NCBI GenBank assembly: GCA_037445635.1
Contig: JBBIKC010000001.1
Coordinates: forward strand, 211,595 to 275,594
Source of the DNA: Chloroflexota bacterium
Lineage (GTDB): Bacteria; Chloroflexota; Anaerolineae; Anaerolineales; Villigracilaceae
DNA length: 64,000 nucleotides
Direction: 5' to 3'
Each line of letters starts with the position of its first letter. The stretch's first letter is position 1. The position numbers and the translations under genes were made by a program. Shown here in pieces: positions 2,505 through 55,732 of the stretch. The notes beneath the pieces are model-generated. The model was not told where the DNA came from. It made no database searches and saw only the letters and a list, made by a program, of their open reading frames with translations.

Positions 2505-2630
2505 GAGGAGTTGCTGTTGAAATCCAACAACACATTCGCGTCTCGCCTGCGCTACGCTCCGCTCGACGCGAAACAAACGACGGCTATTTGCACAGCCGTC
2601 GAGTCGGGTCAAGTCAAAAGTGGATGACGG

Positions 2631-2933
2631 TCAAAACTGAAATCCGCTGCGGGCAGGGACGATCTTGCACGAATAGTTGCGGACAAACGTAAAGAGTTGC
2701 TCGGAGAGGCGGCCCCACTCCTCGGAGTTGAGCGCCTTGCGCGCGCCGCCGGCGTTATCGGCCAGCAGGCCCACCTGAATCTGCGGATAATCGCCGTACA
2801 CCGTAGCCCAGGCTTCGATGGGCTGGAGACCCATGCGCTGGACACCCGGCACGAACTCGCCGATGACGAATTCGAAATACTCCTGTTCGCGGTCGGGGGC
2901 AATATCCCAGGTCATCACGACTTTAACGGGCAT
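2631..2933 (-). CDS. small conserved-looking hypothetical protein
   Basis: ORF 2631..2972 trimmed to MPVKVVMTWDI..., 8 nt after the stop of the upstream gene. Composition looks coding. No family recognised. Confidence 0.45.
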   Translation of the reverse strand: MPVKVVMTWDIAPDREQEYFEFVIGEFVPGVQRMGLQPIEAWATVYGDYPQIQVGLLADNAGGARKALNSEEWGRLSEQLFTFVRNYSCKIVPARSGFQF

Positions 2934-2940
2934 CGGTTTC

Positions 2941-3591
2941 CTATTCCCGTTGATAATCCAGCACGACGACATGGGTCTCGTCGGGCAGGCCGGAGCGCGT
3001 GACCTTGAGCGAGGGCTGGGGAGCGATCTTGCCGAGACCCATCTCTTTGAGGAACTTGTTGAGCGAATCGAGGCTCACTTTGACGTCGGGCGTGGCGTAG
3101 TGCATCGGGACGACGATGTTCGGCTCGAGCAGGCTGATGACCTCGGCTGCCTTGGCCGCGTTGAGTCCGCCCCCGCCTCCCACCGGGACGAGCGCCACGT
3201 TGACCGTTCCCAGGGCCTCCACCTCCGCCTGCGAGGGGACCTGTTTCAAGTCGCCGAGGTGCGCGACCGTGATGCCATCGTAATCGAATACGTACAGGGT
3301 GTTGCGCGTGGGTTCGGCGGACTTCTTCTTGGCCGCGCCGTCGGTCTGCACGCCAGTGATAAAAACGCCGCCAATTTCGAACTCGCCCGGGCCGTCAATC
3401 ACATGCGACGTGCCCTTGACCGCGTCCGTGTTGTTATGTCCCGCCGCGTCGTGACTGACGGTGACGATGTCCGCTTTGAGTTTCAAGGGTTCGTAGCCAA
3501 TCGTCTTACTGTCGAATGGATCGGTTACCACCGTGGCGAAGTTGCGCTCGGTGAGCCGAAAGCAGGAATGTCCATACCAGGTAATTTCCAT
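2941..3591 (-). CDS. metallo-beta-lactamase-fold hydrolase (UPF0173-like)
   Basis: 216 aa. The N-terminus MEITWYGHSCFRLTE...VVTDPF and later HDAAGHNN / VPMHY motifs are typical of UPF0173 metal-dependent hydrolases. Confidence 0.82.
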   Translation of the reverse strand: MEITWYGHSCFRLTERNFATVVTDPFDSKTIGYEPLKLKADIVTVSHDAAGHNNTDAVKGTSHVIDGPGEFEIGGVFITGVQTDGAAKKKSAEPTRNTLYVFDYDGITVAHLGDLKQVPSQAEVEALGTVNVALVPVGGGGGLNAAKAAEVISLLEPNIVVPMHYATPDVKVSLDSLNKFLKEMGLGKIAPQPSLKVTRSGLPDETHVVVLDYQRE

Positions 3592-3684
3592 GAAAGAGCC
3601 TCCGAGTCAATTATACTCGGTGTTGCCCGAGACGCCACACCCGCAAGTCTATGGATGATGGCAAGTATAACCCCATCAATAAAT

Positions 3685-3710
3685 GAGATACCCCGCACTG
3701 GGGGTATCTC
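3685..3710 (-). terminator. hairpin downstream of tRNA-Gln
   Basis: Perfect 10-bp stem GAGATACCCC/GGGGTATCTC with a 6-nt loop. On the minus strand it is followed by ATTTATTG. Confidence 0.55.
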
Positions 3711-3715
3711 GCAGG

Positions 3716-3786
3716 CTGGGGGCAAAGGATTCGAACCTCTACTAACTGATCCAGAGTCAGTCGTCCTGCCATTAGACGAGCCCCCA
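3716..3786 (-). tRNA. tRNA-Gln (anticodon CUG)
   Basis: Hand-folded 71-nt cloverleaf. Acceptor TGGGGGC/GCCCCCA (U1-A72, as in bacterial tRNA-Gln). D stem GTCT/GGAC. Anticodon stem ACTGA/TCAGT with loop CTCTGGA. T arm AGAGG-TTCGAAT-CCTTT. Discriminator G. CCA is not encoded. Confidence 0.9.
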
Positions 3787-43778: not shown

Positions 43779-43959
43779 GTAGAACGATCCTGCAACCTCA
43801 TTGCTCAGGCCGCCGGGGACGGCGCTGGAAGCAGGCGGCCGAATGGGTCGGCCAGATCCACGCAAATTCCAACGCGATAGCGCAGAGTTGCAAACGAAAA
43901 ACATAGATCTAGCGTCTTGGCGACTTTGCGTTAGAAGATCCAGTGTGCACAGATTACAC

Positions 43960-44688
43960 ATGTCAAACCTTAACCAATTTATGATTCAATCCAAACTCAC
44001 CTTCTTCACACGCAACCGTTACAAGATCGCCATATTCGCCCTGATGGCCGCGGCCTCCGCGGTCTGCGTACTCCTCGTCGTGGCGCGGCGGGAATACAGC
44101 AACACGGGACGATACACATCGCTCGTGTGGAATCTTTTCCTCGCATGGATTCCCTTCCTGCTGGCCTATTTTGCCTACGCGCTCTCGTGGCGGAAACTAC
44201 TGTTGTATCTCGTCCTGCCGGTCACGGCCTTCCTGTGGCTGATCTTCTTTCCCAACGCGCCGTACATCCTCACCGATTTGCAGCACCTGGCGCGCGAAGA
44301 GACCGCTGCGCCGCTGTGGTACGACGTGATCCTCATGGTTTGGTTCGCGTGGACAGGCCTGCTGCTCGGACTGGTCTCGCTGTATTTAATGCACGAGATC
44401 GTCCAGCGAAATTTCGGACGCGTGATCGGCTGGGGCTTCGTCTTCCTCGTCTCGGGACTGAGCAGTTTCGGGGTCTATCTGGGGCGCTTCGTCCGCCTCA
44501 ACTCATGGGACATCCTGCAGGACCCGGGCGAGATCGCCATCAGCATCCTCGGCCTGGTCATTGACCCGTCCCTGCGGCTGGTGGCGTTCACGTCGCTGTT
44601 CACGGTCTTTTATCTGTTTGTTTACCTCACCTTGTATTCCTTCGCACATATGCTACAGGAGCAGAAGGAGACGCAAAGTGTACAGTAG
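43960..44688 (+). CDS. DUF1361-like integral membrane protein (paralog 1)
   Basis: Contains WNLFLAWIPFLLAY, FFPNAPYILTDLQHL and RFVRLNSWDIL. Start at ATG 43960. Confidence 0.68.
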   Translation: MSNLNQFMIQSKLTFFTRNRYKIAIFALMAAASAVCVLLVVARREYSNTGRYTSLVWNLFLAWIPFLLAYFAYALSWRKLLLYLVLPVTAFLWLIFFPNAPYILTDLQHLAREETAAPLWYDVILMVWFAWTGLLLGLVSLYLMHEIVQRNFGRVIGWGFVFLVSGLSSFGVYLGRFVRLNSWDILQDPGEIAISILGLVIDPSLRLVAFTSLFTVFYLFVYLTLYSFAHMLQEQKETQSVQ

Positions 44689-45391
44689 GCTGCTGGCGCG
44701 TTTTGCGCACAACAAGTACCGCCTGACCATCTTCGGCCTGCTGGCGGGCGCATCGGTTTTATCGGTCGCGATTTTGCGCGTGCGCTTCGCGTTCGCGGGT
44801 ACGATCTCCTACGCCTTTCTGATCTGGAACCTGTTCCTCGCATGGATTCCATTTCTCATCGCCTACTTCACCTACACACTGACGATCAAACGCCCGTGGC
44901 TGTACGTCGTGATTCCAACAGCGGCCTTCCTCTGGCTCATCTTCTTTCCCAACACGCTCTACATCCTGACCGACTTCCAGCATCTCAACTCCATGCCCAA
45001 CGATGTGCCCGTGTGGTACGACGTACTTCTGCTCATCTGGTTCGCGTGGACGGGATTGCTGCTGGGCGTCGTCTCGCTGTTCCTCATGCAGGAGATCGTG
45101 CGCCGCGAGTTTGGGCGCTGGTTCGGCTGGGGCTTCGTGACGCTGGTGGCCGCGTTGACGAGCGCGGGCATCTACATGGGACGCTTCCTGCGCTGGAACT
45201 CGTGGGACATCCTCCAGCGCCCCGCGGACATCGCCCTCTTCACGTGGAGGCGCGTCCAGGATCCCAGCACAACCTCGATTGCCTTCATCAGCCTGTTCAC
45301 GCTGTTCTTTCTTTTTCTCTATATCACCTTGTACGCCTTCGCGCACTTATTGCTGGAGCGCGGGGCGAATCAGAAGCCAGAGGGGTCGTGA
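44678..45391 (+). CDS. DUF1361-like integral membrane protein (paralog 2)
   Basis: Carries the same motifs (WNLFLAWIPFLIAY, FFPNTLYILTDFQHL, RFLRWNSWDIL). GTG 44678 follows AAGGAG and overlaps the end of paralog 1. Confidence 0.68.
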   Translation: MYSRLLARFAHNKYRLTIFGLLAGASVLSVAILRVRFAFAGTISYAFLIWNLFLAWIPFLIAYFTYTLTIKRPWLYVVIPTAAFLWLIFFPNTLYILTDFQHLNSMPNDVPVWYDVLLLIWFAWTGLLLGVVSLFLMQEIVRREFGRWFGWGFVTLVAALTSAGIYMGRFLRWNSWDILQRPADIALFTWRRVQDPSTTSIAFISLFTLFFLFLYITLYAFAHLLLERGANQKPEGS

Positions 45392-46206
45392 ACGAAGAGC
45401 GCGACTTCAACATGATCCTCCTGCGCGGCGGCGGCGACCTGGCCTCCGGTGTGGCCCTGCGCCTGCACCGCGTCGGGCTGCCGGTGGTCATCATCGAATT
45501 GCCCCAGCCGCTGGCGGTGCGCCGCACGGTGTCGTTCGCGGAGGCGGTCTACGCGGGCGCGTGCACGGTGGAGGGCGTGACCGCCCGCCTCGTTTCACCG
45601 GACCAGTTACAGGTCGCGCTCGAAGCGGGGAACATCCCCGTCCTCGTTGACCCGTCCGCGAGTGTGCTCGCCAACGCGTTCGTCACCAGTCCGCGCAAAA
45701 CGGTCGTGGTGGACGCGCGCCTGACGAAACAGCCGCCCGAGCCATTGCCCGTCCGTCCGCTTCTGCACATCGGACTTGGACCTGGGTTCGCGGCGGGGGA
45801 GAATTGCGACGCCGTGATTGAGACGCGCCGCAGCCACACGCTTGGACGCGTCTTCTGGAGCGGCGCGCCCCAGTCCGACAGCGGACAGCCCGAAGGCGAC
45901 CCGCGCCGAGTCCTGCGCGCGCCGGAGGAGGGAATCGTGACCGGCAGGGCGCAGATTGGGGATGTGGTGGAGGAGGGTGAGACAGTGGCAGTGATCAGTG
46001 ATCAGTATTCGGTAATCAGTCCGTTCCGCGGCGTCGTGCGCGGATTGATCCACGACGGCCTGCATGTGCCGAAGGGAATGAAGATCGGCGACGTGGATCC
46101 GCGCGGCGACCCGAGCGCGTGTTATCTCGTGTCCGATAAGGCGCTGGCGGTGGGAGGCGGCGTGCTGGAAGCGATTTTGAGTTTTGGAACTATGGTTAAT
46201 GGATGA
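45388..46206 (+). CDS. YqeB-family molybdenum hydroxylase accessory protein (the family linked to selenium-dependent Mo hydroxylases)
   Basis: ILLRGGGDLASGVALRLHRVGLPVVIIELPQPLAVRRTVSFAEAVYAG matches my memory of the short YqeB/EF2563-type family. GTG 45388 overlaps the upstream stop (GTGA). ATG 45412 is the alternative start. Confidence 0.7.
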   Translation: MNEERDFNMILLRGGGDLASGVALRLHRVGLPVVIIELPQPLAVRRTVSFAEAVYAGACTVEGVTARLVSPDQLQVALEAGNIPVLVDPSASVLANAFVTSPRKTVVVDARLTKQPPEPLPVRPLLHIGLGPGFAAGENCDAVIETRRSHTLGRVFWSGAPQSDSGQPEGDPRRVLRAPEEGIVTGRAQIGDVVEEGETVAVISDQYSVISPFRGVVRGLIHDGLHVPKGMKIGDVDPRGDPSACYLVSDKALAVGGGVLEAILSFGTMVNG

Positions 46207-46230
46207 TGGTTAATGGATGATGGTTAATGG
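46192..46230. repeat. 14-bp tandem repeat (ATGGTTAATGGATG x2.8) spanning the yqeB-like stop codon
   Basis: Read directly: units at 46192-46205 and 46206-46219, plus a partial unit at 46220-46230. Confidence 0.9.
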
Positions 46231-46237
46231 CGGGTCG

Positions 46238-46585
46238 TCAGGGTTGTTTTCGCCCCAGCCAGGCCGCGACCAACAGGATGCAACCTGAAAAGAAGAGCGG
46301 AGCGACGAAGAGCAGATAGGGTGCTTCCCAGGTATCAGGCCGCCGCAATGTGGGCGAGAAGATCAGCGCCGCGAGCAATGACCCTGTCAGCAAGATCAGC
46401 CCGCCCCACAGCGGACGCTTCCAGCCCAGCCAGGTGAGCAGGCCGATGAGCGCCACCGGGATGAGGTGGCCGAAGCCGCTCCAGTCGCCGGCCGAGGCCT
46501 CGCCCGCCGCAAAGACCAGCAGGATCGCCGCCGCCAGTCCCAGCGGGATGAGCGCGGCGATTTTCAGTCCCTTGATGAGGTTCAT
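46238..46585 (-). CDS. small polytopic membrane protein, hypothetical
   Basis: About 115 aa from MNLIKGLKIAALIPLGL, with 4 hydrophobic helices. The longer ORF start would run into a palindromic repeat. Confidence 0.42.
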   Translation of the reverse strand: MNLIKGLKIAALIPLGLAAAILLVFAAGEASAGDWSGFGHLIPVALIGLLTWLGWKRPLWGGLILLTGSLLAALIFSPTLRRPDTWEAPYLLFVAPLFFSGCILLVAAWLGRKQP

Positions 46586-46602
46586 GGTAGGGCTATTATA
46601 GC

Positions 46603-46695
46603 CCCTCCCCAAATACGACAGGCAAGTTTAGGCGCCAATCAAAATGTAAATGTCGTATTTGGGGAGGGTGTCCGAAGGACGGGTGGGGCGGGGTC
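46603..46695. repeat. long inverted repeat plus G-rich tail at the left edge of the R-M block
   Basis: 18-bp perfect arms CCCTCCCCAAATACGACA / TGTCGTATTTGGGGAGGG separated by 30 nt. The tail GGGTGTCCGAAGGACGGGTGGGGCGGGGT closely matches 54612-54640. Confidence 0.8.
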
Positions 46696-46796: not shown

Positions 46797-48410
46797 ATGC
46801 CTCCAAAGAAAACGGCAAAAGCCAAAACAAAGAACGGAAACAACGGCGCGGCGCTTGGCATCGAAGCGGAGTTGTGGCAGGCGGCGGATAAACTGCGCGG
46901 GCATCTCGACGCGGCGGATTACAAGTCCGTGGTGTTGGGGTTGATTTTCCTGAAGTATGTCTCCGATATGTTCGAGCAGGTGCGGGCGCGGGTGGAGGCG
47001 GAAGGGCTGGACGATCCGGAGGATAGAGATGTCTATTTGGCGGAACGCGTCTTCTGGGTCCCGAAAGAGGCGAGATGGAAAATCCTGCAGGATAACGCCA
47101 AGCAGGAGTCCATCGGCAATTTGATTGACCAGGCGATGGAAGCCATCGAGCGGGATAATCCCTCGCTGCGGGGGATGCTGCCGAATAATTACGGGCGCGC
47201 CGCGCTGGATAAGCGTCGGCTCGGGGATTTGGTGGACCTCGTCAGCAACAAGATCAACTTCGCAGACGAGGAGAGCCGCAAGCAGGATACGCTCGGACGG
47301 GTGTACGAATATTTCCTGTCGCAGTTTGCCAGCCAGGAGGGACGCAAGGGCGGGGAGTTCTATACGCCGCGCTCGGTCGTGCGCGTGCTGGTGGAGATGC
47401 TCGCGCCGTATAAGGGACGCGTCTTCGATCCGTGCTGTGGAAGCGGCGGGATGTTCGTGCAGAGCGAGAAGTTCGTGGAGGCGCACGGCGGGAAGATCGG
47501 CGATATTTCGATTTACGGACAGGAATCCAATCCCAACACGTTCAAACTGGCGAAGATGAATCTTGCCATCCGCGGCATCGAAGGGGACCTGGGCAAACAG
47601 CCCGCGGACTCGTTCCACAACGACCAGCATCCCGACCTGAAGGCGGATTACATCCTTGCCAACCCGCCGTTCAACATGAGCGATTGGGGCGGCGAGAGTT
47701 TGCGCGAGGACAAACGCTGGAAATACGGCGTTCCGCCTGTGAGCAACGCCAACTTTGCGTGGGTGCAGCATTTCATCCATCATCTTTCGCCGAACGGCAC
47801 GGCGGGATTCGTGCTGGCGAACGGGAGCATGTCGAGCAATACGTCGGGCGAGGGCGAGATTCGCAAAGCCATCATCGAAGACGATTTGGTGGATTGCATG
47901 GTCGCCCTGCCGGGGCAGTTGTTTTACAGCACGCAGATTCCGGTGTGTTTGTGGTTCCTTTCGCGGAAGAAAACCCTCACCCCTAACCCCTCTCCCACAG
48001 GGAGAGGGGGACGTGACCGACGCGGGCAGACGTTGTTCATTGACGCGCGCAAATTGGGAACGTTGACCGACCGCGTCCATCGGGATTTGACGGATGAAGA
48101 CATCGCCAAGATCGCGGGGACGTATCATGCGTGGAAAGGCGACCTCACCCCCAACCCCTCTCCTAAAAGGAGAGGGGAGTACGCAGACATTCCTGGCTTT
48201 TGCAAATCCGTCACCATCGAGGAAATCCGCGCGCAGGGATATGTGCTGACCCCAGGACGCTACGTGGGCGCGGCGGAAGTGGAAGAGGACGACGAGCCTT
48301 TCGCCGAAAAGATGGCGCGCCTGACGAAGGAGTTGGAAGCGCAGTTTGAAGAGAGTAAAAAGCTTGAAAATCTCATCAGGAAAAATCTTGGTCGGATTGA
48401 AACAAAATGA
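46797..48410 (+). CDS. hsdM: Type I restriction-modification system methyltransferase subunit
   Basis: HsdM N-terminal domain ([32 protein letters not shown]). AdoMet motif [12 protein letters not shown]. Catalytic NPPFN. Confidence 0.93.
47975..48016 (+). repeat. nested palindromic element, in-frame in hsdM (copy M1)
   Basis: CTCACCCCTAA-CCCCTCTCCC-ACA-GGGAGAGGGG-GACGTGAC, translated as [15 protein letters not shown]. Confidence 0.85.
48141..48180 (+). repeat. nested palindromic element, in-frame in hsdM (copy M2)
   Basis: GACCTCACCCCCAA-CCCCTCTCC-TAAAA-GGAGAGGGG, translated as [13 protein letters not shown]. Confidence 0.85.
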
Positions 48411-49618
48411 AAGATTCAGTTTATGGGTTAGTGAATGACAATTTAGACGTTGATACTCTGGAAAACCTTTGTGTTCCTGGAGGAATTCAAACGGGTCCTT
48501 TTGGAAGCCAATTACACCAAAAGGATTATTTACCTGTGGGTACACCCATAATCACGGTCGAGCATCTTGGTGAAAATCGTATCTTGCACCAAGATTTACC
48601 ACGTGTTTCAAACACAGACAAAGAAAGACTCTCACGATATATAATGCAAAAAGGGGATATTATTTTCAGCCGTGTAGGTTCTGTTGATCGGCGGGCTTTG
48701 GTTCGACATGAAGAAGATGGATGGCTATTCTCTGGTCGTTGTCTAAGAGTGAGACCCGACCAAACAAAAATAGATTCTGATTACTTATCTTGGTTTTTTG
48801 GGCTTGAAATATTCAGGGATTACATTCGTCGTATTGCAGTCGGTGCGACAATGCCATCTCTCAATACAGAATTACTGAGCAATGTGCCTGTGTTTTTTCC
48901 GCCCCTCCCCGAACAACGCGCCATTGCAGGGATACTCGGCGCGCTGGACGACAAGATCGAACTCAACCGCCGCATGAACCGCACGCTCGAGTCCATGGCG
49001 CGGGCGGTGTTTCGTCAGTGGTTTGTGGAGAATGAGGAGGTTGGGGAGTGGGAGGTTGGTAAATTGGGAGATGTTGCAGAAAACATGAGGCGAAGCGCTA
49101 ATGCGGATGAAATTGAACCCGAAACACATTACATCGGTTTGGAACACATGCCACGCGGAAGTATTGCGCTTTCTGAATGGGGAAATGCGAGTGAATTGGC
49201 AAGTAATAAATTCATTTTCAAAGAGGGCGAATTTCTCTTTGGAAAGTTGAGACCTTACTTTCACAAAGTCGGGATTGCACCAGTTGATGGCGTGTGTTCA
49301 ACTGACATTTTGGTGATTGTGCCAAAGAAGCCAGAATGGTATGGCTATGTTCTTGGTCACATTTCAAGTGTGGAATTAATCAACTATACCAATGCCGCTT
49401 CTACTGGAACGAAAATGCCAAGAACGAACTGGTCAGATATTGCAAATTATGATGTGGCAATTCCACCTGTGGAGAAGGCTAAAGATTACAACGAGATATT
49501 TCTACCAATGGCACAACTTATTCGAGCAAACATTCTAGAATCGCACACGCTGGCGAGTCTGCGGGATAGTCTGCTGCCGAAGTTGATGCGCGGCGAGGTG
49601 AGGGTGAATGGGTTGTAG
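48407..49618 (+). CDS. hsdS: Type I R-M specificity subunit
   Basis: Two AT-richer target-recognition domains are separated by the conserved [29 protein letters not shown] region, with a C-terminal [20 protein letters not shown] overlap with hsdM. Ends in three consecutive TAG codons. Confidence 0.9.
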
Positions 49619-49620
49619 TA

Positions 49621-49667
49621 GTAGGGACACGACAGTGTCGTGTCCCTACGCAATGTCGTGCCCCTAC
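49621..49667 (+). repeat. REP-like hairpin plus half-site immediately upstream of the RAYT gene
   Basis: Perfect 13-bp stem GTAGGGACACGAC-AGT-GTCGTGTCCCTAC (49621-49649), then half-site GTCGTGCCCCTAC (49655-49667). Confidence 0.85.
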
Positions 49668-49693
49668 GCGCCGTGCACACACCCAAACGAGGA

Positions 49694-50227
49694 ATGATGA
49701 AATTCGACCCGCAAAAACACCACCGCCGTTCCATCCGATTGAAGGGATACGATTACACCCAGGCAGGCGCGTATTTCATCACGATTGTCACCTATCAACG
49801 TGAGCCCCTGTTTGGTGAAATCGTGAACGGCGGGATGCAATTATCACCGATGGGTCAGATCGCCGAGGAACATTGGCGCGCCATACCCGAACATTTCCCA
49901 AATGTGGAATTGGGCGCGTATGTGGTCATGCCGAATCATGTGCATGGGATAATCATAATCAATGATGGTAGGGGCACGATATATCGTGCCCCTACGGAAC
50001 AATTTCAAAAACCTGTAACAGGGTCAATACCAACCATCATTCGCACGTACAAGGCATCCGTCACCCGCCGCATCCAAAAAGAATTGAACGAAACCGCCGT
50101 CTGGCAGCGCAACTATTACGAACACATCATCCGTAACGACGAAGAACACAACCGCATCCATTTGTACATCGAATCAAACATTGACAATTGGGTCAACGAC
50201 GAAGAAAATCCTGTAAGTGTGAAATGA
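49694..50227 (+). CDS. HUH/Y1 transposase-like protein (IS200-like, REP-associated tyrosine transposase type)
   Basis: Contains [12 protein letters not shown], the HUH motif in [12 protein letters not shown] and the catalytic Tyr context [11 protein letters not shown]. About 177 aa. Start at ATG 49694 after GAGGA. Its stop overlaps the hsdR ATG. Confidence 0.82.
49968..49995. repeat. REP-like perfect palindrome inside the RAYT coding sequence
   Basis: GTAGGGGCACGATATATCGTGCCCCTAC (28 bp, fully self-complementary), translated in-frame as [10 protein letters not shown]. Confidence 0.9.
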
Positions 50228-53200
50228 TAAAATTCACCGAATCCACCATCGAGCAAGCCGCCATAAACTGGCTCAAAGAACTGGGCTACGACTACGCCTT
50301 CGGTCCTGAGATCGCGTTCGATGGTGAACGCCCCGAACGCGCAGATTATCAGGAACCGCTCCTGCCTGGTCGTCTGCGGGACGCGCTCACACGCCTCAAC
50401 CCCGACCTTCCTCCTACCGCGCGCGAAGAAGCCTTTCGCCAACTGACGCGTCTCGGCAAGCCCTCGCTCTTGCTCAACAACCACGCCTTTCATCATCTGC
50501 TGGTCAACGGTATTGAAGTGGAATATAAGAAGGACGGACGCATGGTCAGCGGGCGGGCGGTTGTGGTGGATTTCGATAACCCCGATAACAACGACTGGCT
50601 GGTCGTCAATCAATATACTGTCACTGAAACCCTAAAGGTCTCCGAGACCTTTAGGGTTTCCAACAGGCGCCCCGACGTGGTGGTCTTCCTCAACGGTCTG
50701 CCGCTGGCGGTCATCGAACTCAAGAACGCCGCCGATGAAAAAGCGACCATCTGGTCGGCGTTCAATCAACTGCAAACCTACAAGCGCGACATCCCCGCCC
50801 TGTTCCACTACAACGAACTGCTCATTATCTCCGACGGCGTGAACGCCCGCATCGGCTCGCTCACCGCCAGCAAGGAATGGTTCCTGCCGTGGAAGACGAT
50901 TGAAGGCGAGACTCAAGCCCCCGCGTCGCTGAGTCAACTCGAAGTCCTGCTGCGAGGCGTGTTCGAGAAACGCCGCTTCCTCGACCTCATCCGCTACTTC
51001 ATCGTCTTCGAGCAGGAACGCGGCGCGCCCACCGTCAAAAAAATTGCGGGCTATCACCAATTCCACGCGGTCAATTACGCGGTGGCTGAAACCATCCGTG
51101 CATCGCATGTAGGACAAATTTCCAATTTGTCCATTGCCGAACTCAAAGGCGTGTACCGCGCCCAACCCATGAAAGGCGGCGAAACGGGCGACCGCCGCAT
51201 CGGCGTGATATGGCACACGCAGGGTTCGGGCAAAAGCCTGACGATGGCGTTTTATGCGGGGCGGCTGGTCCTTCATCCCGCCATGCAAAACCCCACCATC
51301 ATCGTCATCACCGACCGCAACGACCTCGACGACCAACTCTTCGGCACGTTCTCGCGCTGTTCCGAAATCCTGCGTCAAACGCCCGAACAGGCGACGAGCC
51401 GCGAAGACCTGCGGGAAAAACTTAAGGGGCGCATCGCGGGCGGCGTGTTCTTTACCACCATTCAAAAATTCCTTCCCCCCTCTCCCTTTGGGAGAGGGGC
51501 TGAGGGTGAGGGTCTCCCCTCTCCTTCCAGGAGAGGGGATGGAGGTGAGGTCCTCTCCGATCGCCACAACATCATCGTCATTGCGGATGAAGCGCACCGC
51601 AGTCAATACGACTTCATAGACGGCTACGCCCGAGCCATGCGCGATGCCCTTCCCAACGCCTCTTTCATCGGGTTTACTGGCACGCCCATCGAACAGGCGG
51701 ACGCCAACACCCGAGCCGTGTTCGGCGATTACATCAGCGTCTATGACATTCAGCAGGCGGTCGAAGACGGCGCGACGGTCAAAATCTATTACGAAGGTCG
51801 GCTCGCCAAACTGGAACTGGACGAAAAAGAGAAGCCGAAGATTGATCCTGAATTCGACGAGGTCACCGAAGGCGAAGAACTCGAAAAGAAGGAAAAACTC
51901 AAGAGCAAGTGGGCGGCGCTCGAAGCCGTGGTGGGGACCGAAAAGCGCGTGGGCTTGATTGCCAAAGACATCGTTGAGCATTTCGAGAAGCGCCTCGAAG
52001 CCCTGGACGGCAAGGCGATGGTCGTGTGCATGTCCCGCCGCATCTGCGTTGACCTATACAACGCCATCGTCAAACTCCGTCCCGATTGGCATTCAGAGGA
52101 TGACAAGCAGGGTGTCATCAAAATCGTGATGACGGGCAGCGCCTCTGACCCAACAGACTGGCAGGGACACATCCGCACCAAGAAAGCCCGTGAGGATTTA
52201 GCCCTGCGATTCAAAGACCCCGCTGACCCGTTCAAGATCGTCATCGTCCGCGACATGTGGCTGACGGGGTTCGATGTCCCGCCGCTGCACACCATGTACA
52301 TTGACAAGCCCATGCAGGGACACGGTCTCATGCAGGCGATTGCAAGAGTCAATCGGGTGTACCCCAACAAAGAGGGCGGTTTGATTGTGGACTATCTGGG
52401 TCTCGCGTATCACTTGCAGAAAGCCCTTGCGACCTACACCGAAGCGGGGCATCCCGCCGAAATCCCCGACCAGGAGCAGGCGGTTAATGAGTTGCTCAAA
52501 CGTTATGAGATTTGCAAAGGCTTATTACACGGTTTCGACTGGTCGAAATATTTCACAGGGACAGCGCAGGAAAGACTCAACGCGATTCCGCAGGCGATGG
52601 AACACATCCTCCAATTGCCAGACGGCAGAAAACGCTTTCTGGACGCCGTCCGCAGCATGTCGCTTGCCTTTGCGCTGGCGGTCCCTGATGAACGCGCCAT
52701 CGCCATCCGCGACGACGTGGGATTCTTTCAGGCAGTGCGCGCCGCTTTCATCAAGCATACGGTGGAGGGCGGAAAATCGGAAGAGGATTACGAACAGGCG
52801 ATTCGGCAAATCCTATCTCGTGCGGTCTCAGCAGGAGATCAAGTCATTGATATATTCGCCGCCGCGGGCTTGAAGAAACCCGAAATCTCCATTCTTTCGG
52901 ATGAATTTCTGACGGAGATGCGCGGGATGCCGCAAAAGAACCTTGCGATAGAACTGCTCCGCAAACTGCTCAACGACGAACTCAAATCGCGGATGAAGAA
53001 GAATGTGGTGCAGTCGCGCTCCTTCACCGAAATGCTCGAACGCACCATCCGCGCCTACCAAAACCGCACGCTTGAATCGGCGGAAGTCATTGCCGAACTC
53101 ATCAAACTCGCCGAAGAAATGCGAGAGGCACAGAAGCGCGGCGAAAAACTCAACCTGACGGAAGATGAGATTGCCTTCTACGACGCGCTCGAAGTCAACG

Positions 53201-53439
53201 ACAGCGCGGTGAAGGTATTGGGCGATGACACGCTCAAAGCCATCGCCCGCGAACTCGTGGAAACCGTTCGCAACAACGTTACGATTGACTGGACAGTACG
53301 CACATCTGTCCGCGCAAACTTGCGGCGCATGGTCAAGCGCATCCTGCGCAGGCATGGCTATCCGCCCGATAAACAGGAGAAAGCCACTCAAACTGTGCTG
53401 GAGCAGGCTGAGGTCATTGCGCGGGATTGGGCGGGATGA
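50224..53439 (+). CDS. hsdR: Type I R-M restriction/helicase subunit
   Basis: N-terminus [22 protein letters not shown]. Nuclease motif RRPD...VIELK. Helicase motifs [12 protein letters not shown] ([10 protein letters not shown]), GFTGTP and QAIARVNR. 1071 aa. Confidence 0.93.
50626..50660. repeat. palindromic element in-frame in the hsdR nuclease domain
   Basis: GAAACCCTAAAGGTCT-CCG-AGACCTTTAGGGTTTC, translated as [12 protein letters not shown] immediately before RRPD. Near-identical to the terminator-like copy at 38737-38769. Confidence 0.88.
51470..51552 (+). repeat. two tandem nested palindromic elements in-frame in hsdR
   Basis: CCCCTCTCCC-TTT-GGGAGAGGGG, then CTGAGGGTGAGGGT, then CCCCTCTCC-TTCCA-GGAGAGGGG, then ATGGAGGTGAGGTC. 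Translated as [26 protein letters not shown], between TTIQKF and the DEAH box. Confidence 0.88.
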
Positions 53440-53444
53440 TTTTC

Positions 53445-53470
53445 AAGAGACAGCCTCGCGGCTGTCTCTT
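53445..53470 (+). terminator. hairpin after hsdR
   Basis: 11-bp stem AAGAGACAGCC/GGCTGTCTCTT with loop TCGC. The T-tract is weak. Confidence 0.5.
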
Positions 53471-53488: not shown

Positions 53489-54958
53489 ATGAACCTCGCC
53501 CGCGCGCTACGCGTCCTTCCCCAATTGCTCCCTTCGCGTACTTCGCCCCTTCGCGGTGAAGCAATCGCCCTCGTCGGCGCGGGCGGCAAGACCACTGCCC
53601 TCTTCCAACTCGCATGGCAATTCCAATCGCAAATCGAAAATCATCAATCGTCAATCGTTACCACCACCACCCACCTCGGCGCATGGCAGGTTGCACAGGC
53701 CGACCATCACCTCATCGTCACCGAAGACACTCCCCTGCCCGAACTCGACACACTTGAAGGCGTTATCCTCGTCACGGGCGCATTGGACGGCGACCGCTTC
53801 CCCTCCCCGCCGCGCCAGACCCTCGACCATCTGCGTGACCACTGCGCGGCGCGCGGCCTGTCCCTGCTCATCGAAGCCGACGGCGCGCGCGGACGTCCCC
53901 TCAAAGCGCCCGCCGCGCACGAGCCTGCCATCCCAGATTTTGTGGATACGGTCATCGTGGTCGCTGGCTTGAGTGGACTGGGAAAACCGCTGACCGACGA
54001 CTTCGTCCATCGCCCGCATCGCTTCTCGACCTTGAGCGGGCTGCCGCTTAACCAGCCGGTCACACCCGAGGCATTGACCCGCGTCCTGACTCACCCCGAT
54101 GGCGGACTCAAAAACATCCCGCCCGGCGCGCGCCGCGTGACCCTGCTCAACCAGGCCGACACACCCGAATTACAATCCATCGGCGGCAGGATGGCGAAGT
54201 CCCTGCTAAATGAATTCGATTCTGTCATTGTCTGCGCCCTTCAACCCTTCGACACAGCTCAGGGCAAGCCTTCCAACTTTCAAACTTTCGAACTGACAGC
54301 AGGCATCATCCTCGCCGCGGGCGCGTCCGAACGTTTTGGCCAGCCCAAGCAACTGCTCGACTGGCGCGGCCAGCCCTTCGTACGCGCTGTTGCACAGACT
54401 GCGCTGAACGCGGGACTCTCGCCCGTGATCGTCGTCACCGGCGCGTATGCAGACCAGGTCGAGGCCGCGCTCCGCGATCTGCCCGTGACCATCGTCCGCA
54501 ACGAGGGCTGGCAGGAAGGCCAGGCCTCTTCGATCCGCGCGGGGATAAGATCCCTCACCCTGCCCCTCCCCGTCCCTCCCATCCCCTCTCCCAGTGGGAG
54601 AGGGGATGGGAGGGTGCCCGAAGGGCGGGTGGGGAGGGGTGAGGTCGGTTCCGCCCTCTTCCTCCTCGCCGACCAGCCGCACATCCCCGTCAATGTGATT
54701 CAAGCGCTGACGGCACATCACAGCCGCGAGTTGTATCCCATCCTCGCGCCGCTGGTGATGATGGAACAGCGCGCCAACCCCGTGCTCTTCGACCGAGTCA
54801 CATTCCCCGATCTGCTCGCGCTGAGAGGCGATGTCGGCGGCCGCGCCCTCTTCTCGAAATATCCCGTCGAATACCTGCCCTGGCACGATGATCGTCTCCT
54901 GCTCGACGTGGACAAACCCGAAGATTATCAACGGCTGGTGGAAGATGAGACACTCTAA
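53489..54958 (+). CDS. YqeC-like P-loop accessory protein fused to a MocA-like molybdenum cofactor cytidylyltransferase domain
   Basis: N-terminal AIALVGAGGKTTALFQLA...SSIVTTTTHLG (YqeC family pattern). C-terminal half AGIILAAGASERFGQPKQLL...VIVVTG...LLADQP (MobA/MocA NTP-transferase). Confidence 0.78.
   Translation: MNLARALRVLPQLLPSRTSPLRGEAIALVGAGGKTTALFQLAWQFQSQIENHQSSIVTTTTHLGAWQVAQADHHLIVTEDTPLPELDTLEGVILVTGALDGDRFPSPPRQTLDHLRDHCAARGLSLLIEADGARGRPLKAPAAHEPAIPDFVDTVIVVAGLSGLGKPLTDDFVHRPHRFSTLSGLPLNQPVTPEALTRVLTHPDGGLKNIPPGARRVTLLNQADTPELQSIGGRMAKSLLNEFDSVIVCALQPFDTAQGKPSNFQTFELTAGIILAAGASERFGQPKQLLDWRGQPFVRAVAQTALNAGLSPVIVVTGAYADQVEAALRDLPVTIVRNEGWQEGQASSIRAGIRSLTLPLPVPPIPSPSGRGDGRVPEGRVGRGEVGSALFLLADQPHIPVNVIQALTAHHSRELYPILAPLVMMEQRANPVLFDRVTFPDLLALRGDVGGRALFSKYPVEYLPWHDDRLLLDVDKPEDYQRLVEDETL
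54551..54646 (+). repeat. long nested palindromic element in-frame in the MocA domain
   Basis: CCTCACCC..CCCTCCCAT-CCCCTCTCCC-AGT-GGGAGAGGGG-ATGGGAGGG..GGGGTGAGGTC, translated as LTLPLPVPPIPSPSGRGDGRVPEGRVGRGEV. Confidence 0.88.
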
Positions 54959-55105: not shown

Positions 55106-55732
55106 ATGATTACCGCCGTCGTACTCGCCGCAGGCGAATCCAAACGCATGGGTCAGCCCAAGATGCTCCTGCCCTGGGGCGGAAGCACCGTGCTTGGTCA
55201 CGTCCTCACGGTGCTTCAAGCCGCCGAAGTGGACGACATCCTGGTCGTCACCGGCGGCGCGCGGGAGCAGGTGGAGGCCGTCGCCCGCGAACACAACGCG
55301 CGGACCGTCTTCAATGCAGATTACGCGCGGGGCGAGATGCTATCTTCCATTCAAATGGGTCTTCGCCTACTAATATCTCCCCTCTCCCCTTCAGGGAGAG
55401 GGGTCGGGGGTGAGGGTCAGGGTGAGGTCGACGCGGCCCTCCTCGTCCTCGGCGACCAGCCCCAGGTCCAGGAAGGAAGCGTGCGCGCTGTCCTCGCTGC
55501 GTATCGCAGGAGTCAATCCAATCTCATCGTCCCATCCTACCAAATGCGGCGCGGACATCCATGGCTGGCAGCGCGCCCGTTGTGGGATGAAATCCTGCAA
55601 ATGCAATTCCCTCAGACGCCGCGCGATTTTTTGAACAGGCACGCGGCCGAGATCGAATATGTCAACCTGGATACATCTACCATCCTCGCCGACCTCGACA
55701 CTCCCGAAGACTACTTGAAATCGCGGCTATAG
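55106..55732 (+). CDS. MocA-like molybdenum cofactor cytidylyltransferase (second copy)
   Basis: Contains ITAVVLAAGESKRMGQPKMLLPW, ILVVTGG and LVLGDQP. Start at ATG 55106. Confidence 0.8.
   Translation: MITAVVLAAGESKRMGQPKMLLPWGGSTVLGHVLTVLQAAEVDDILVVTGGAREQVEAVAREHNARTVFNADYARGEMLSSIQMGLRLLISPLSPSGRGVGGEGQGEVDAALLVLGDQPQVQEGSVRAVLAAYRRSQSNLIVPSYQMRRGHPWLAARPLWDEILQMQFPQTPRDFLNRHAAEIEYVNLDTSTILADLDTPEDYLKSRL
55377..55429 (+). repeat. nested palindromic element in-frame in the second MocA gene
   Basis: CCCCTCTCCC-CTTCA-GGGAGAGGGG-TCGGGGGTGAGGGTCAGGGTGAGGTC, translated as SPLSPSGRGVGGEGQGEV. It sits at the position homologous to the insert in the upstream MocA domain. Confidence 0.88.

What the first reader, a model, noticed from the sequence alone, without database searches (positions are those of the whole stretch)
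46797..53439. HUH/Y1 (RAYT-type) transposase gene hard-wired into a Type I R-M operon between hsdS and hsdR
hsdM, hsdS and hsdR are co-directional and tightly packed. hsdM and hsdS overlap by ATGA at 48407-48410.

Between hsdS and hsdR lies a roughly 177-aa IS200-like Y1 protein. It has an HUH motif in MPNHVHGII and a Tyr in RNYYEHIIR. Its TGA overlaps the hsdR ATG (ATGA at 50224-50227). So hsdR has no intergenic space of its own and must be expressed through the transposase gene.

A perfect 13-bp GC-rich REP hairpin sits in the 75-nt gap after hsdS. It could attenuate or stabilise the transcript and uncouple methylase/specificity expression from nuclease expression.

RAYTs are normally solitary, REP-flanked genes. 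I do not know of them being described as operon members of restriction systems. It could be any of three things:
- a fixed passenger;
- a regulator of R versus M/S stoichiometry;
- an ssDNA-processing accessory of the defence system.
Basis: partly seen in the sequence, partly recalled or inferred. Interest (0 to 1): 0.8.

Follow-up and report, generated by a model that had tools for sequence, protein, structure and literature searches.

The report
RAYT transposase gene inside restriction operon
A domesticated-transposase-type gene (a RAYT) sits just upstream of the nuclease gene of a type I restriction-modification operon, its stop codon overlapping that gene's start; the same arrangement recurs in many bacteria, but it looks like cargo in a known insertion hot spot rather than a new defence component.

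Summary
hsdM, hsdS, a 176/177-aa Y1/HUH gene and hsdR form one co-directional unit. There are ATGA overlaps at 48407 and 50224 and a perfect 13-bp hairpin in the 75-nt gap after hsdS.

The gene is an intact RAYT (TnpA_REP) of subclass 2.4 / Group 4. By alignment to E. coli TnpA_REP, the catalytic Tyr is Y158 (LYIESN), not the RNYYEH tyrosine.

The synteny recurs:
- 10-11 of the 80 RAYT loci returned from species-representative genomes lie in type I R-M operons.
- 14 of 68 distinct relatives of this HsdR have a RAYT directly upstream.
- 16 of 26 RAYT-hsdR junctions have the same 4-bp overlap.

The R-M-linked RAYTs are polyphyletic and under purifying selection (dN/dS 0.11-0.18). However, the closest HsdR alleles lack RAYT and carry other cargo or nothing in the same slot. 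Most family members sit in housekeeping operons.

Best reading: a selfish or domesticated passenger in the permissive hsdS-hsdR cassette slot, with a likely damping effect on HsdR synthesis. No paper in the searched library links RAYTs to type I R-M.

The parts
46797..48410 (+). hsdM, the type I methyltransferase. It carries two in-frame copies of an unrelated palindromic element at 47975-48009 and 48143-48177.
   Evidence: Pfam N6_Mtase 4.5e-110 and HsdM_N; PADLOC MTase_I 751 bits. Repeats.
48407..49618 (+). hsdS, the specificity subunit. Its start overlaps the hsdM stop (ATGA). Its TAG stop lies 2 nt before the REP hairpin. It has the lowest G+C of the operon (about 45%).
   Evidence: Pfam Methylase_S with two stretches; sequence; composition. 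Only 33% identical to HsdS of L003, whereas HsdM is 87% and HsdR 81% identical.
49621..49649 (.). 'Double-foot' REP hairpin GTAGGGACACGAC-AGT-GTCGTGTCCCTAC, upstream of the RAYT gene.
   Evidence: DNA fold z = -5.3. Within the 131-nt stretch 49590-49720 folded as RNA (-50.1 kcal/mol overall, z = -2.7), this hairpin forms the core stem. The same foot and architecture recur in relatives.
49655..49667 (.). Extra 3' half-arm of a REP (GTCGTGCCCCTAC). It is identical to the 3' arm of the L003 REP. Reiterated 3' arms of this kind are seen in many relatives.
49694..50227 (+). RAYT / TnpA_REP gene, subclass 2.4-like, 177 aa. Public gene calls start at 49697, giving 176 aa. HUH codons (His-Val-His) at 49937-49945. 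Predicted catalytic Tyr158 at 50165-50167.
   Evidence: Pfam Y1_Tnp above cut-off. The only PDB sequence relative is 4ER8, TnpA_REP. AF2 model pLDDT 75.9; the Foldseek top 30 are all Y1 transposases, and 4ER8 has the highest TM-score normalised to the query, 0.54. dN/dS 0.11-0.18.
49968..49995 (.). Second REP hairpin, GTAGGGGCACGA-TATA-TCGTGCCCCTAC, inside the RAYT ORF between the HUH and Tyr motifs. It encodes [10 protein letters not shown], which falls in a low-confidence surface loop.
   Evidence: DNA fold z = -7.1. The loop, residues 94-107, has pLDDT below 50. 68 of 95 relatives have a perfect palindrome with stems of at least 9 bp at this position, with 37 distinct inner stems. This is a published trait of subclass 2.4 (PMC6006769).
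50181..50209 (+). Promoter-like match TTGACA-17-GAAAAT inside the RAYT 3' end, ending 15 nt before the hsdR ATG. Untested.
   Evidence: 10 of 12 matches; 6 sites found in the region against 3.6 expected. The hexamers coincide with conserved codons (IDN, EN).
50224..53439 (+). hsdR, the type I restriction endonuclease/translocase. Its ATG overlaps the RAYT TGA. It carries in-frame palindromic inserts at 50626-50660 and 51474-51551.
   Evidence: Pfam HSDR_N, SWI2_SNF2, T1R_D3-like, T1RH-like_C; PADLOC REase_I 1123 bits. Inserts.
53448..53467 (+). Hairpin AGACAGCC-TCGC-GGCTGTCT 9 nt after the hsdR stop. It is the likely end of the transcription unit; the tail is only partly T-rich.
   Evidence: Read directly from the sequence. 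The terminator scan did not call it.

Best explanation
The ORF is an intact, selectively maintained RAYT (REP-associated tyrosine transposase, TnpA_REP) of subclass 2.4 / Group 4. One copy of its 'double-foot' REP palindrome lies just upstream and another lies in frame inside its own gene.

It occupies the hsdS-to-hsdR slot of a horizontally acquired type I R-M operon. In this HsdR family that slot is a cassette-exchange hot spot. Relatives carry there nothing, or GmrSD, PD-(D/E)XK, AAA ATPases, KAP NTPase, DUF3800, DUF6398, a 23S-IVP-like protein or a family of unknown function, or a RAYT. Cassettes are often bracketed by a leftover stub of the hsdR 5' end.

RAYT is the commonest cargo for this HsdR family, and type I R-M is the commonest single address among the RAYT loci sampled here. 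Yet the R-M system does not need the RAYT, and most relatives of the RAYT live in housekeeping operons.

The most likely reading is a selfish or domesticated passenger. It is tolerated and carried along for two reasons. A polar insertion just upstream of hsdR is the one position in the operon that cannot cause lethal under-methylation. R-M cassettes are also frequently transferred.

Consequence for the operon (inferred, not shown): hsdR is transcribed through two GC-rich 12-13-bp hairpins or from within the RAYT ORF. It is translated by termination-reinitiation at ATGA, so HsdR output is tied to, and probably damped by, RAYT translation.

Shown: identity and fold, recurrence of the synteny, polyphyly, purifying selection, absence from close alleles, cargo diversity, stubs.

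Inferred: co-transcription, translational coupling, the dosage effect, and the reason for the enrichment.
For: Identity of the gene:
-.
- Subclass traits match PMC6006769: NHVH, WQ, Y---N, a REP inside the gene, and double-foot REPs.

Recurrence of the synteny:
- L003/L004 (RAYT 76%, HsdR 81% identical) have the same four-gene order and the same ATGA overlap.
- P0002, P0003 and P0032 (72-84% identical) show the same arrangement.
- 10-11 of 80 species-representative RAYT loci lie in type I R-M operons whose HsdR is only 26-63% identical to this one.
- About 16-17 of 79 HsdR relatives (14 of 68 after removing near-duplicates) have a RAYT directly upstream.
- 16 of 26 junctions have the exact 4-bp overlap.

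Selection and age:
- RAYT dN/dS is 0.11-0.18, against 0.107 for HsdR.
- RAYT dS is 0.95, against 1.06 for HsdR.

Dispensable cargo in a hot spot:
- The window's sister HsdR allele L086 (85% identical) has GmrSD, a stub and the unknown 'C1' protein instead of a RAYT.
- L133, L142, L157 and L159 have hsdS-hsdR gaps of only 25-38 nt.
- The hsdS-to-hsdR interval ranges from 25 nt (no cargo) to 4.8 kb.
- hsdR 5' stubs flank non-RAYT cargo as well as RAYT cargo.
- The literature calls hsdS-hsdR a recombination hot spot and reports frequent embedding in type I R-M (PMC12255303; bioRxiv 10.1101/2024.01.29.577857).

Function not specific to R-M:
- About 69 of the 80 relatives sit in varied, mostly co-directional housekeeping contexts, often with 4-bp overlaps.
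- A second conserved address is proC-RAYT-ABC-F.

Foreign origin of the cassette: the R-M G+C is 45-58% against 60-65% in the flanks.
Against: - The mutual enrichment is far stronger than a neutral passenger model predicts. My own rough estimate is that a random gene should neighbour a type I R-M gene in well under 1% of cases; the observed figure is about 13%.
- The association arose in at least nine RAYT lineages and with HsdR as divergent as 26-31% identical to this one.
- When other cargo is present, RAYT is almost always the last gene before hsdR (10 of 11 loci). A random stacking model does not predict this.
- Within clade I the pairing has persisted over dS of about 1.
- None of the expression claims was tested. 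A promoter-like site inside the RAYT 3' end could uncouple hsdR transcription from upstream hairpins.
- The sample of 80 RAYT loci consisted of the best matches to an R-M-linked query, so the 13% figure may be inflated.
Confidence: 0.6

Rival explanations
1. Co-opted dosage regulator. The REP-RAYT unit is selected because it sets HsdR below or later than HsdM/S. The REP 3 nt after the hsdS stop and the intragenic REP attenuate read-through, and ATGA coupling limits HsdR translation. This would ease establishment of the R-M cassette in new hosts and limit self-restriction.
For: - RAYT sits immediately upstream of hsdR rather than upstream of hsdM or hsdS. This holds in HsdR ranging from 26% to 85% identity to this one; 18 of 26 junctions overlap.
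- The pairing is long-lived under purifying selection.
- Stable hairpins.
- REPs are known to act as attenuators, mRNA stabilisers and translation modulators. This rests on my own knowledge and on the reference lists seen.
Against: - HsdR alleles 82-85% identical (e.g. L086, L088, L089) function without it, judged by intact operons, and more distant relatives (L133, L142, L157, L159) have hsdS abutting hsdR.
- An attenuator needs only the hairpin, not a 177-aa ORF with conserved catalytic residues.
- The same RAYT family is embedded in the same way in unrelated operons.
- L074 has a RAYT upstream of hsdM, and in L019 it lies between hsdM and hsdS.
Confidence: 0.18
2. Active targeting. Subclass-2.4 RAYTs, or their REP-bounded units, insert preferentially at the conserved 5' end of hsdR. 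They may themselves drive cassette exchange there, arriving with a replacement hsdR start.
For: - In L091, L103, L108, L111, L123/124/134, L136 and L137, a stub of the hsdR 5' end (35-103 nt) is followed directly by the REP, then RAYT, then ATGA and a full hsdR.
- Differences between stub and live copy are mostly synonymous. In L137, 13 of 17 differences are at third codon positions and none at second; 10 codons differ synonymously and 4 non-synonymously. The two copies therefore diverged as coding alleles.
- The L137 stub is 89-92% identical to the RAYT-less alleles L147 and L140, whereas the live copy is 81% identical.
- Several RAYT lineages occupy the same site.
- REP-like hairpins are about four-fold denser inside hsdR genes next to a RAYT: 5 per 32 kb against 6 per 149 kb.
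Against: - Stubs are just as common beside non-RAYT cargo, so the mechanism is not RAYT-specific. Examples are L115, L149, L113, L092, L140, L107, L146, L096, L131, L086, L088, L126 and L144.
- Some stubs are fused to hsdS 3' fragments. That points to recombination between conserved operon ends.
- No common nucleotide motif is evident at the stub/REP joints.
- The window itself, L003 and L114 have no stub.
- About 87% of the 80 sampled RAYT loci are not at hsdR.
Confidence: 0.12
3. Defence accessory. The HUH nuclease acts on phage or plasmid ssDNA, or on R-M reaction intermediates, as a functional fourth subunit or partner system.
For: - 'Guilt by embedding': genes between hsdS and hsdR are often defence genes.
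- The catalytic residues are intact and conserved.
Against: - No PADLOC family matches.
- Most homologues sit in housekeeping operons.
- The cognate REP lies in and next to the gene, as in classical REP-processing RAYTs.
- Presence is patchy among close HsdR alleles.
Confidence: 0.05
4. Chance neighbour: a one-off insertion of no wider significance.
For: The window holds a single RAYT copy and no dispersed copies of its REP.
Against: The synteny recurs in dozens of independent contigs, several phyla, and HsdR down to 26-31% identity to this one.
Confidence: 0.03

Closest known systems
TnpA_REP / RAYT subclass 2.4 of Quentin et al. 2018 (PMC6006769), which equals RAYT Group 4 of Bertels et al. 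2017 (PMC5581495)
   Same: - NH[IFV]H HUH motif, WQ motif and a Y---N(P) tyrosine motif.
- About 180-195 aa, with no C-terminal extension.
- A variable insert between strand beta3 and helix alphaC.
- 'Double-foot' REPs (GT[AG]G ... C[TC]AC).
[quoted passage not shown]
- Low copy number; rare on plasmids (3 of 72,556 records).
- Found in Chloroflexi, Cyanobacteria, Chlorobi, Bacteroidetes and scattered phyla.
   Different: - Those papers do not report any link to restriction-modification genes; the word 'restriction' is absent from the main text of PMC6006769.
- In the window protein the Pro of Y---NP is Ile (YIESNI), as in its closest R-M-linked relatives.
E. coli TnpA_REP (YafM, PDB 4ER8) and its REPtron
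   Same: - Y1/HUH fold.
- HUH plus a single catalytic Tyr on the C-terminal helix.
- A GTAG tetranucleotide at the REP foot.
- It is the only PDB sequence relative and the Foldseek hit with the highest TM-score normalised to the query (PMC3479197).
   Different: - The E. coli REPs are imperfect, bulged hairpins with a single-stranded 5' GTAG. Here the palindromes are perfect and GTAG pairs with CTAC.
- The E. coli gene is flanked by BIMEs, has no REP inside it, and is not in an R-M operon.
- Sequence identity is about 20%.
Genes embedded between hsdS and hsdR of type I R-M systems (DarTG2 in EPEC, PrrC, and 'guilt by embedding' candidates)
   Same: - The same slot, the same co-directional embedding, and the same idea of a recombination hot spot (PMC12255303; bioRxiv 10.1101/2024.01.29.577857).
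- Relatives of this operon carry typical defence-type cargo there: GmrSD, AAA_15/21, KAP NTPase, PDDEXK_3.
   Different: - The embedded gene here is a RAYT, not a recognised defence gene. The bioRxiv study (10.1101/2024.01.29.577857) counts transposases, integrases and phage proteins as a separate 'mobility-associated protein' class, so a RAYT would probably fall there.
- The hsdR 5' stubs that bracket cassettes are not described in the passages I read.
IS200/IS605 insertion sequences (TnpA of IS608, ISDra2)
   Same: The same fold and chemistry; recognition of DNA hairpins; ssDNA substrates.
   Different: - No tnpB.
- No pair of distinct subterminal hairpins defining element ends.
- No identical extra copies in the window.
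- The gene is under long-term purifying selection at a conserved address.
- Rare on plasmids.
TnpA_REP association with prochlorosin genes in marine picocyanobacteria (bioRxiv 10.1101/2020.03.09.984088)
   Same: A precedent for a RAYT that repeatedly co-localises with one particular gene family, with a proposed role in recombination or diversification.
   Different: - The partner gene family is different.
- The authors later stated they found no strong evidence for or against causality.
- No translational coupling is described.

Membership tests
RAYT / TnpA_REP (Y1 HUH, class 2) | HUH motif (His-hydrophobic-His) on a beta strand | tested here: met
   H82-V-H84 (PNHVHGII). Both His are invariant in 20 homologues and align to H59-M-H61 of 4ER8.
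RAYT / TnpA_REP (Y1 HUH, class 2) | Single catalytic Tyr in a Y---NP motif on the C-terminal helix | tested here: met
   Y158-I-E-S-N162 aligns to Y115...N119 of 4ER8. Y158 and N162 are invariant. The Pro is Ile in the window protein and Pro in most relatives.
RAYT / TnpA_REP (Y1 HUH, class 2) | Y1-transposase fold | tested here: met
   AF2 model pLDDT 75.9, pTM 0.75. All Foldseek hits with E <= 0.001 (30 chains) are IS200/IS608/ISDra2 TnpA-type Y1 transposases or 4ER8.
RAYT / TnpA_REP (Y1 HUH, class 2) | Curated HMM thresholds | tested here: inconclusive
   Pfam Y1_Tnp 26.2 bits, above the cut-off of 23, but only the C-terminal half aligns. NCBIfam REP_Tyr_transpos 64.9 bits, below the cut-off of 80. 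PMC6006769 notes that PF01797 aligns only partly to class 2.
RAYT / TnpA_REP (Y1 HUH, class 2) | Gene flanked by REPs carrying a GT[AG]G foot | tested here: inconclusive
   One full REP plus a half-arm lie upstream, and one REP lies inside the gene. None lies downstream, because hsdR starts there. Relatives commonly have upstream and downstream REPs identical to the internal one.
RAYT / TnpA_REP (Y1 HUH, class 2) | A dispersed genomic population of the cognate REP | not testable with these tools
   Only 64 kb of the source MAG (GCA_034434055.1) is available, and no copy lies outside the RAYT locus. In relatives, REP-like hairpins occur about once per 23 kb of flank, and some are identical to the internal one.
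TnpA_REP subclass 2.4 / RAYT Group 4 | REP inserted in frame within the gene between HuH and Y; variable beta3-alphaC insert | tested here: met
   REP at 49968-49995. 68 of 95 relatives have a perfect palindrome at this position. The loop has low pLDDT. Definition from PMC6006769.
TnpA_REP subclass 2.4 / RAYT Group 4 | 'Double-foot' REP (5' GT[AG]G and 3' C[TC]AC) | tested here: met
   Both window hairpins have the form GTAGGG...CCCTAC. The foot is conserved in 45 of 48 relatives whose perfect stem reaches the foot.
TnpA_REP subclass 2.4 / RAYT Group 4 | Assignment with the authors' own subclass profiles or sequence sets | not tested
The assignment rests on motifs, length, REP type and taxonomic range.
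IS200/IS605 insertion sequence | Several near-identical copies, distinct left and right subterminal hairpins, often tnpB, frequent on plasmids | tested here: not met
   A single copy in the window; no tnpB nearby; homologues on only 3 of 72,556 plasmid records; conserved address with dS of about 1.
Type I restriction-modification system | HsdM (N6_Mtase + HsdM_N), HsdS (two target-recognition domains) and HsdR (HSDR_N nuclease + SF2 motor + C-terminal domain) in one locus | tested here: met
Known anti-phage accessory or defence protein | Match to a PADLOC-DB family | tested here: not met
   No PADLOC family matches the RAYT at E <= 0.01.

The most novel reading that the evidence does not exclude
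Subclass-2.4 RAYTs and type I hsdR genes form a specific, repeatedly re-established partnership. Under this reading the REP-RAYT unit lands at, or is selected at, the conserved 5' end of hsdR and couples its own translation to HsdR. It either tunes nuclease dosage or takes part in an integron-like cassette-exchange process. In that process the conserved hsdS 3' and hsdR 5' ends act as attachment or homology sites, leaving hsdR 5' stubs as scars.
Probability: 0.25. Interest if true: 0.75.

Novelty: new variant of a known kind. Interest (0 to 1): 0.55.

Why it matters
RAYTs are the textbook 'domesticated transposases' whose benefit to the cell is still unknown. Type I R-M operons are known to collect embedded genes, but transposase-like genes are probably set aside as mobility proteins rather than examined as candidates.

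A RAYT immediately upstream of hsdR, often sharing 4 bp with its start, recurs across several phyla, and at least nine RAYT lineages lie in or next to type I R-M operons. This gives a concrete and testable genomic partner for one RAYT subclass.

The survey also shows that the hsdS-hsdR slot behaves like a cassette site. Cargo there is bracketed by hsdR 5' stubs. This bears on how defence islands are assembled and exchanged.

If the RAYT merely hitch-hikes, it is still a clear example of a selfish gene exploiting the one polarity-tolerant position in an addiction-like operon.

Tried and rejected
1. Exact look-up of the 177-aa product found nothing. Public gene calls start at the second ATG; P0001, 176 aa, located the source contig.

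2. I first took the internal REP to be a new family-wide feature. The literature shows it is already described for subclass 2.4, so it is not claimed as new.

3. I first read the hsdR 5' stubs as evidence that the RAYT brings its own hsdR start, i.e. as RAYT-specific homing. A scan of all HsdR loci then showed equally good stubs next to non-RAYT cargo. The stubs are therefore a property of the slot, not of the RAYT.

4. Tests of whether only the first codons or the whole live hsdR is foreign were inconclusive. In L123 the reference is 81% identical to the stub, 77% to the live copy and 86% to the next 240 nt. In L137 the figures are 89-92%, 81% and 78-82%.

5. A single 'R-M clade' of RAYTs is rejected. 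The NJ trees show R-M-linked members scattered, with two larger clades. In the HsdR tree, RAYT-positive and RAYT-negative loci are interspersed. These trees are NJ trees on short alignments and have weak resolution.

6. Rfam found no known RNA family. The only hit was a spurious miRNA match at E = 0.7.

7. The hairpin after hsdS is not an intrinsic terminator: it has no T-run and the scan did not call it.

8. Literature searches for RAYT, IS200 or REP together with type I R-M returned nothing relevant.

9. A plasmid search gave only three distant hits.

Full report
**1. What is there**

The ORF map and domain scans confirm four co-directional genes:
- hsdM, 46797-48410;
- hsdS, 48407-49618;
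- a Y1/HUH ORF, 49694 (or 49697)-50227;
- hsdR, 50224-53439.

The hsdM/hsdS and Y1/hsdR junctions are both ATGA overlaps. The 75-nt gap after hsdS holds a perfect 13-bp hairpin, GTAGGGACACGAC-AGT-GTCGTGTCCCTAC, at 49621-49649, followed by an orphan 3' arm at 49655-49667. A hairpin 9 nt after the hsdR stop (53448-53467) probably closes the unit.

The operon has 45-58% G+C against 60-65% in the flanks. It interrupts a xanthine-dehydrogenase / molybdenum-cofactor neighbourhood, so it is a horizontally acquired cassette. The source is contig DAOTZX010000022.1 of MAG GCA_034434055.1.

**2. What the small gene is**

- Pfam Y1_Tnp passes its cut-off (26.2 against 23 bits). NCBIfam REP_Tyr_transpos scores 64.9, below its cut-off of 80. 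PADLOC has no match.
- A profile of 20 homologues finds only E. coli TnpA_REP (4ER8) among all PDB sequences. It aligns at the HUH strand and at the helix that carries the catalytic Tyr.
- An AlphaFold model (pLDDT 75.9) matches only Y1 transposases at E <= 0.001 in Foldseek. 4ER8 has the highest TM-score normalised to the query, 0.54.
- By that alignment the nucleophile is Y158 (HLYIESN), equivalent to Y115 of TnpA_REP, and N162 is equivalent to N119 (PMC3479197).

It encodes [10 protein letters not shown], in a loop with pLDDT below 50 between the HUH strand and the next helix.

Across 95 relatives, 68 have a perfect palindrome with stems of at least 9 bp at this position. The GTAG-GGG foot is conserved, there are 37 different inner stems, and all four Watson-Crick pair types occur at the variable positions. 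The internal palindrome usually matches the hairpins that flank the same gene.

This is exactly the published signature of TnpA_REP subclass 2.4, which equals RAYT Group 4: 'double-foot' REPs, and REPs inserted in frame within tnpA_REP between HuH and Y (PMC6006769; PMC5581495). The gene is therefore a member of a known RAYT subclass, and the internal REP is a known trait.

**3. Does the synteny recur?**

Yes, strongly.

Close RAYT relatives:
- P0006 (76% identical; L003/L004) lies in hsdM-hsdS-RAYT-hsdR with the same 4-bp overlap, in different genomic surroundings. HsdM is 87% and HsdR 81% identical, but HsdS only 33%.
- P0002, P0003 and P0032 (72-84% identical) show the same arrangement.
- P0017 and P0020 occupy a second conserved address, proC-RAYT-ABC-F.

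Species-representative genomes: among the 80 best RAYT loci (40-60% identity; Chloroflexota, Nitrospirota, Nitrosomonas, Desulfobacterota and others), 10-11 lie in type I R-M operons, always co-directional. The HsdR proteins there are only 26-63% identical to the window's.

HsdR relatives from metagenomes: among 79 relatives (56-85% identical), 16-17 have a RAYT. After removing near-duplicates the count is 14 of 68. In all but one the RAYT is the last gene before hsdR, even when 1-2.5 kb of other cargo separates it from hsdS.

Junctions: of 26 RAYT-hsdR junctions, 16 are the exact ATGA/GTGA overlap and 18 overlap. This includes L077, whose HsdR is only 30% identical.

Phylogeny: in NJ trees the R-M-linked RAYTs fall into two larger clades plus several singletons, giving at least nine lineages.

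Selection: RAYT is under purifying selection (dN/dS 0.11-0.18, against 0.107 for HsdR and 0.129 for HsdM). Its synonymous divergence between the window and L003 (0.95) matches that of hsdR (1.06). It is therefore not a recent insertion.

**4. Why I do not read it as a component of the restriction system**

- The window's sister HsdR allele, L086 (85% identical), shares even an in-frame palindromic insert in HsdR. Yet it has no RAYT and carries a GmrSD-type gene plus an unknown 224-aa protein instead. L088 and L089 (82-83% identical) also lack it. L133, L142, L157 and L159 have hsdS abutting hsdR.
- The slot holds typical defence-island cargo in relatives: GmrSD_N, PDDEXK_3, AAA_15/21, KAP NTPase, DUF3800, DUF6398, DUF1828/1829 and a 23S_rRNA_IVP-like protein. 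Published work calls hsdS-hsdR a recombination hot spot and reports frequent embedding in type I R-M; one study counts transposases among 'mobility-associated proteins'.
- About 69 of the 80 RAYT relatives sit among unrelated housekeeping genes, mostly co-directional and often with the same 4-bp overlaps. Examples are metH, DUF711, dinB and proC.
- Non-RAYT cargo that precedes hsdR also abuts or overlaps its start. The 'hard-wiring' is therefore a habit both of this RAYT subclass and of this operon family. It is not evidence of a dedicated partnership.

**5. The cassette slot**

In many RAYT-bearing loci the DNA just upstream of the REP is a diverged copy of the hsdR 5' end, 35-103 nt long (L091, L103, L108, L111, L123/124/134, L136, L137). 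In L137, 13 of the 17 differences between stub and live copy are at third codon positions and none at second. The stub is also closer to RAYT-less alleles than the live copy is: 89-92% (L147, L140) against 81%. The two copies are therefore different hsdR alleles joined by recombination.

The same stubs occur next to non-RAYT cargo in at least a dozen loci. Their breakpoints cluster near hsdR nt ~48 and ~100-105. In L115, L113 and L107 the stub is fused to a fragment of the conserved hsdS 3' end.

The stubs are therefore scars of a general cassette-exchange process bounded by the conserved hsdS 3' and hsdR 5' ends. They are not a RAYT-specific homing mark. The window, L003 and L114 have no stub; in L003 the hsdS TAG stop lies within the GTAG foot of the REP.

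**6. Most likely mechanism**

The RAYT is a selfish or domesticated passenger in a permissive, frequently exchanged slot.

Position (inference): a polar insertion just before hsdR can only lower nuclease output, which is harmless. The same insertion before hsdM or hsdS would risk under-methylation.

Spread (inference): mobile R-M cassettes carry it between genomes.

Effect on the operon (inference):
- hsdR has no intergenic space.
- hsdR must be transcribed through the REPs at 49621-49649 and 49968-49995 (DNA-fold z -5.3 and -7.1; in the RNA fold of 49590-49720 the upstream hairpin forms the core stem), or else from the untested promoter-like site at 50181-50209.
- hsdR is probably translated by reinitiation at ATGA.
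- HsdR is therefore likely kept lower or later than HsdM/S.

There is weak evidence that the RAYT acts locally. REP-type hairpins are about four-fold denser inside hsdR genes that follow a RAYT (5 per 32 kb against 6 per 149 kb), and their stems match that RAYT's REP type.

**7. What remains unexplained**

The mutual enrichment is much stronger than a neutral model predicts: about 13% of the sampled RAYT loci lie in type I R-M operons, and about 21% of this HsdR family carries a RAYT. It has arisen repeatedly, and the RAYT is nearly always the gene adjacent to hsdR. I therefore keep appreciable probability on a dosage-tuning role (0.18) and on active targeting or cassette mobilisation by the RAYT (0.12).

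One caveat: the 80 RAYT loci were the best matches to an R-M-linked query, so an unbiased census is needed.

**8. Novelty**

Known: the RAYT subclass, its intragenic REP, in-frame REPs in other genes, REP feet that supply TAG stop codons (PMC3733652), and embedding of cargo in type I R-M operons.

New, as far as the searchable literature shows: the recurrent adjacency of a RAYT to hsdR, often sharing 4 bp with its start. I did not find the stub-bracketed cassette architecture of the slot described in the passages I read.

Verdict: a new variant of a known kind.

Noticed in passing
window 47975-48009, 48143-48177 (hsdM); 51474-51551 (hsdR, two tandem copies); 54583-54605; 55379-55403: A second, unrelated palindromic element is inserted in frame in hsdM, hsdR and two downstream genes. 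Its form is CCCCTCTCC-N4-7-GGAGAGGGG, often followed by CTGAGGGTGAGGG, and it encodes peptides such as PSPxGRGxGGEV. All six copies in the 64-kb window lie within 7.5 kb around the R-M operon. L003 and L114 instead have a GTAGGGGC-type REP (VGASHDSPL) at the same hsdR position.
   Followed up: partly
window 50626-50660 (inside hsdR): A perfect 17-bp palindrome, GAAACCCTAAAGGTCTC / GAGACCTTTAGGGTTTC, encodes [13 protein letters not shown] in a hypervariable HsdR loop (about residues 135-148). In relatives the same loop hosts REP-type inserts. The same palindrome type marks the border between the hsdR 5' stub and the cargo in L086, L088, L122, L126 and L140; in L086, L088, L122 and L126 that cargo was identified as the unknown 'C1' gene.
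   Followed up: partly
L086:4189-4863, L088:2236-2895, L095:4143-4835, L110:4120-4848, L117:4245-4940, L126:4280-4954 and others: An uncharacterised protein family of 207-242 aa ('C1') with no Pfam match. In 11 loci it is always the last gene before hsdR. After RAYT it is the second commonest cargo in this slot.
   Followed up: partly
L115:407-504, L149:3009-3103, L113:2753-2854, L092:25-124, L107:432-520, L146:411-516, L140:201-263 and others: Direct repeats of the hsdR 5' end (stubs of 40-105 nt) lie upstream of non-RAYT cargo. Breakpoints cluster near hsdR nt ~48 and ~100-105. In L115, L113 and L107 the stub is fused to an hsdS 3'-end fragment. This suggests a general cassette-exchange mechanism that uses the conserved operon ends.
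   Followed up: partly
L005, L168, L169 (Anaerolineales): A second conserved address for close RAYT relatives (71-74% identical). The gene lies between proC (pyrroline-5-carboxylate reductase, with an ATGA overlap) and an ABC-F ATPase gene.
   Followed up: partly
L003:11405 and 11783; L091:3092 and 3947; L103:4595; L102:1075; L064:5096 and 5336; L090:5875 and 6256: GTAGGGGC-type REP hairpins lie inside hsdR coding sequences downstream of RAYT genes. In L064, L090, L091, L102 and L103 their stems are of the same type as the neighbouring RAYT's REP. They are about four-fold denser than in hsdR genes without an adjacent RAYT.
   Followed up: partly
window 46192-46233 and 46603-46668: Two features lie upstream of hsdM. 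One is three tandem copies of a 14-nt unit, ATGGTTAATGGATG. The other is an 18-bp perfect inverted repeat (CCCTCCCCAAATACGACA ... TGTCGTATTTGGGGAGGG, arms 30 nt apart), next to a promoter-like site at 46572-46599.
   Followed up: no
L166:614-3757: In the locus of the closest metagenomic RAYT relative (P0002, 84% identical), hsdR is called as two ORFs (614-1924 and 1955-3757). It may be interrupted or frameshifted.
   Followed up: no
window 43801-45391: Two tandem paralogous DUF1361 membrane-protein genes lie upstream of the R-M cassette. This looks ordinary.
   Followed up: no
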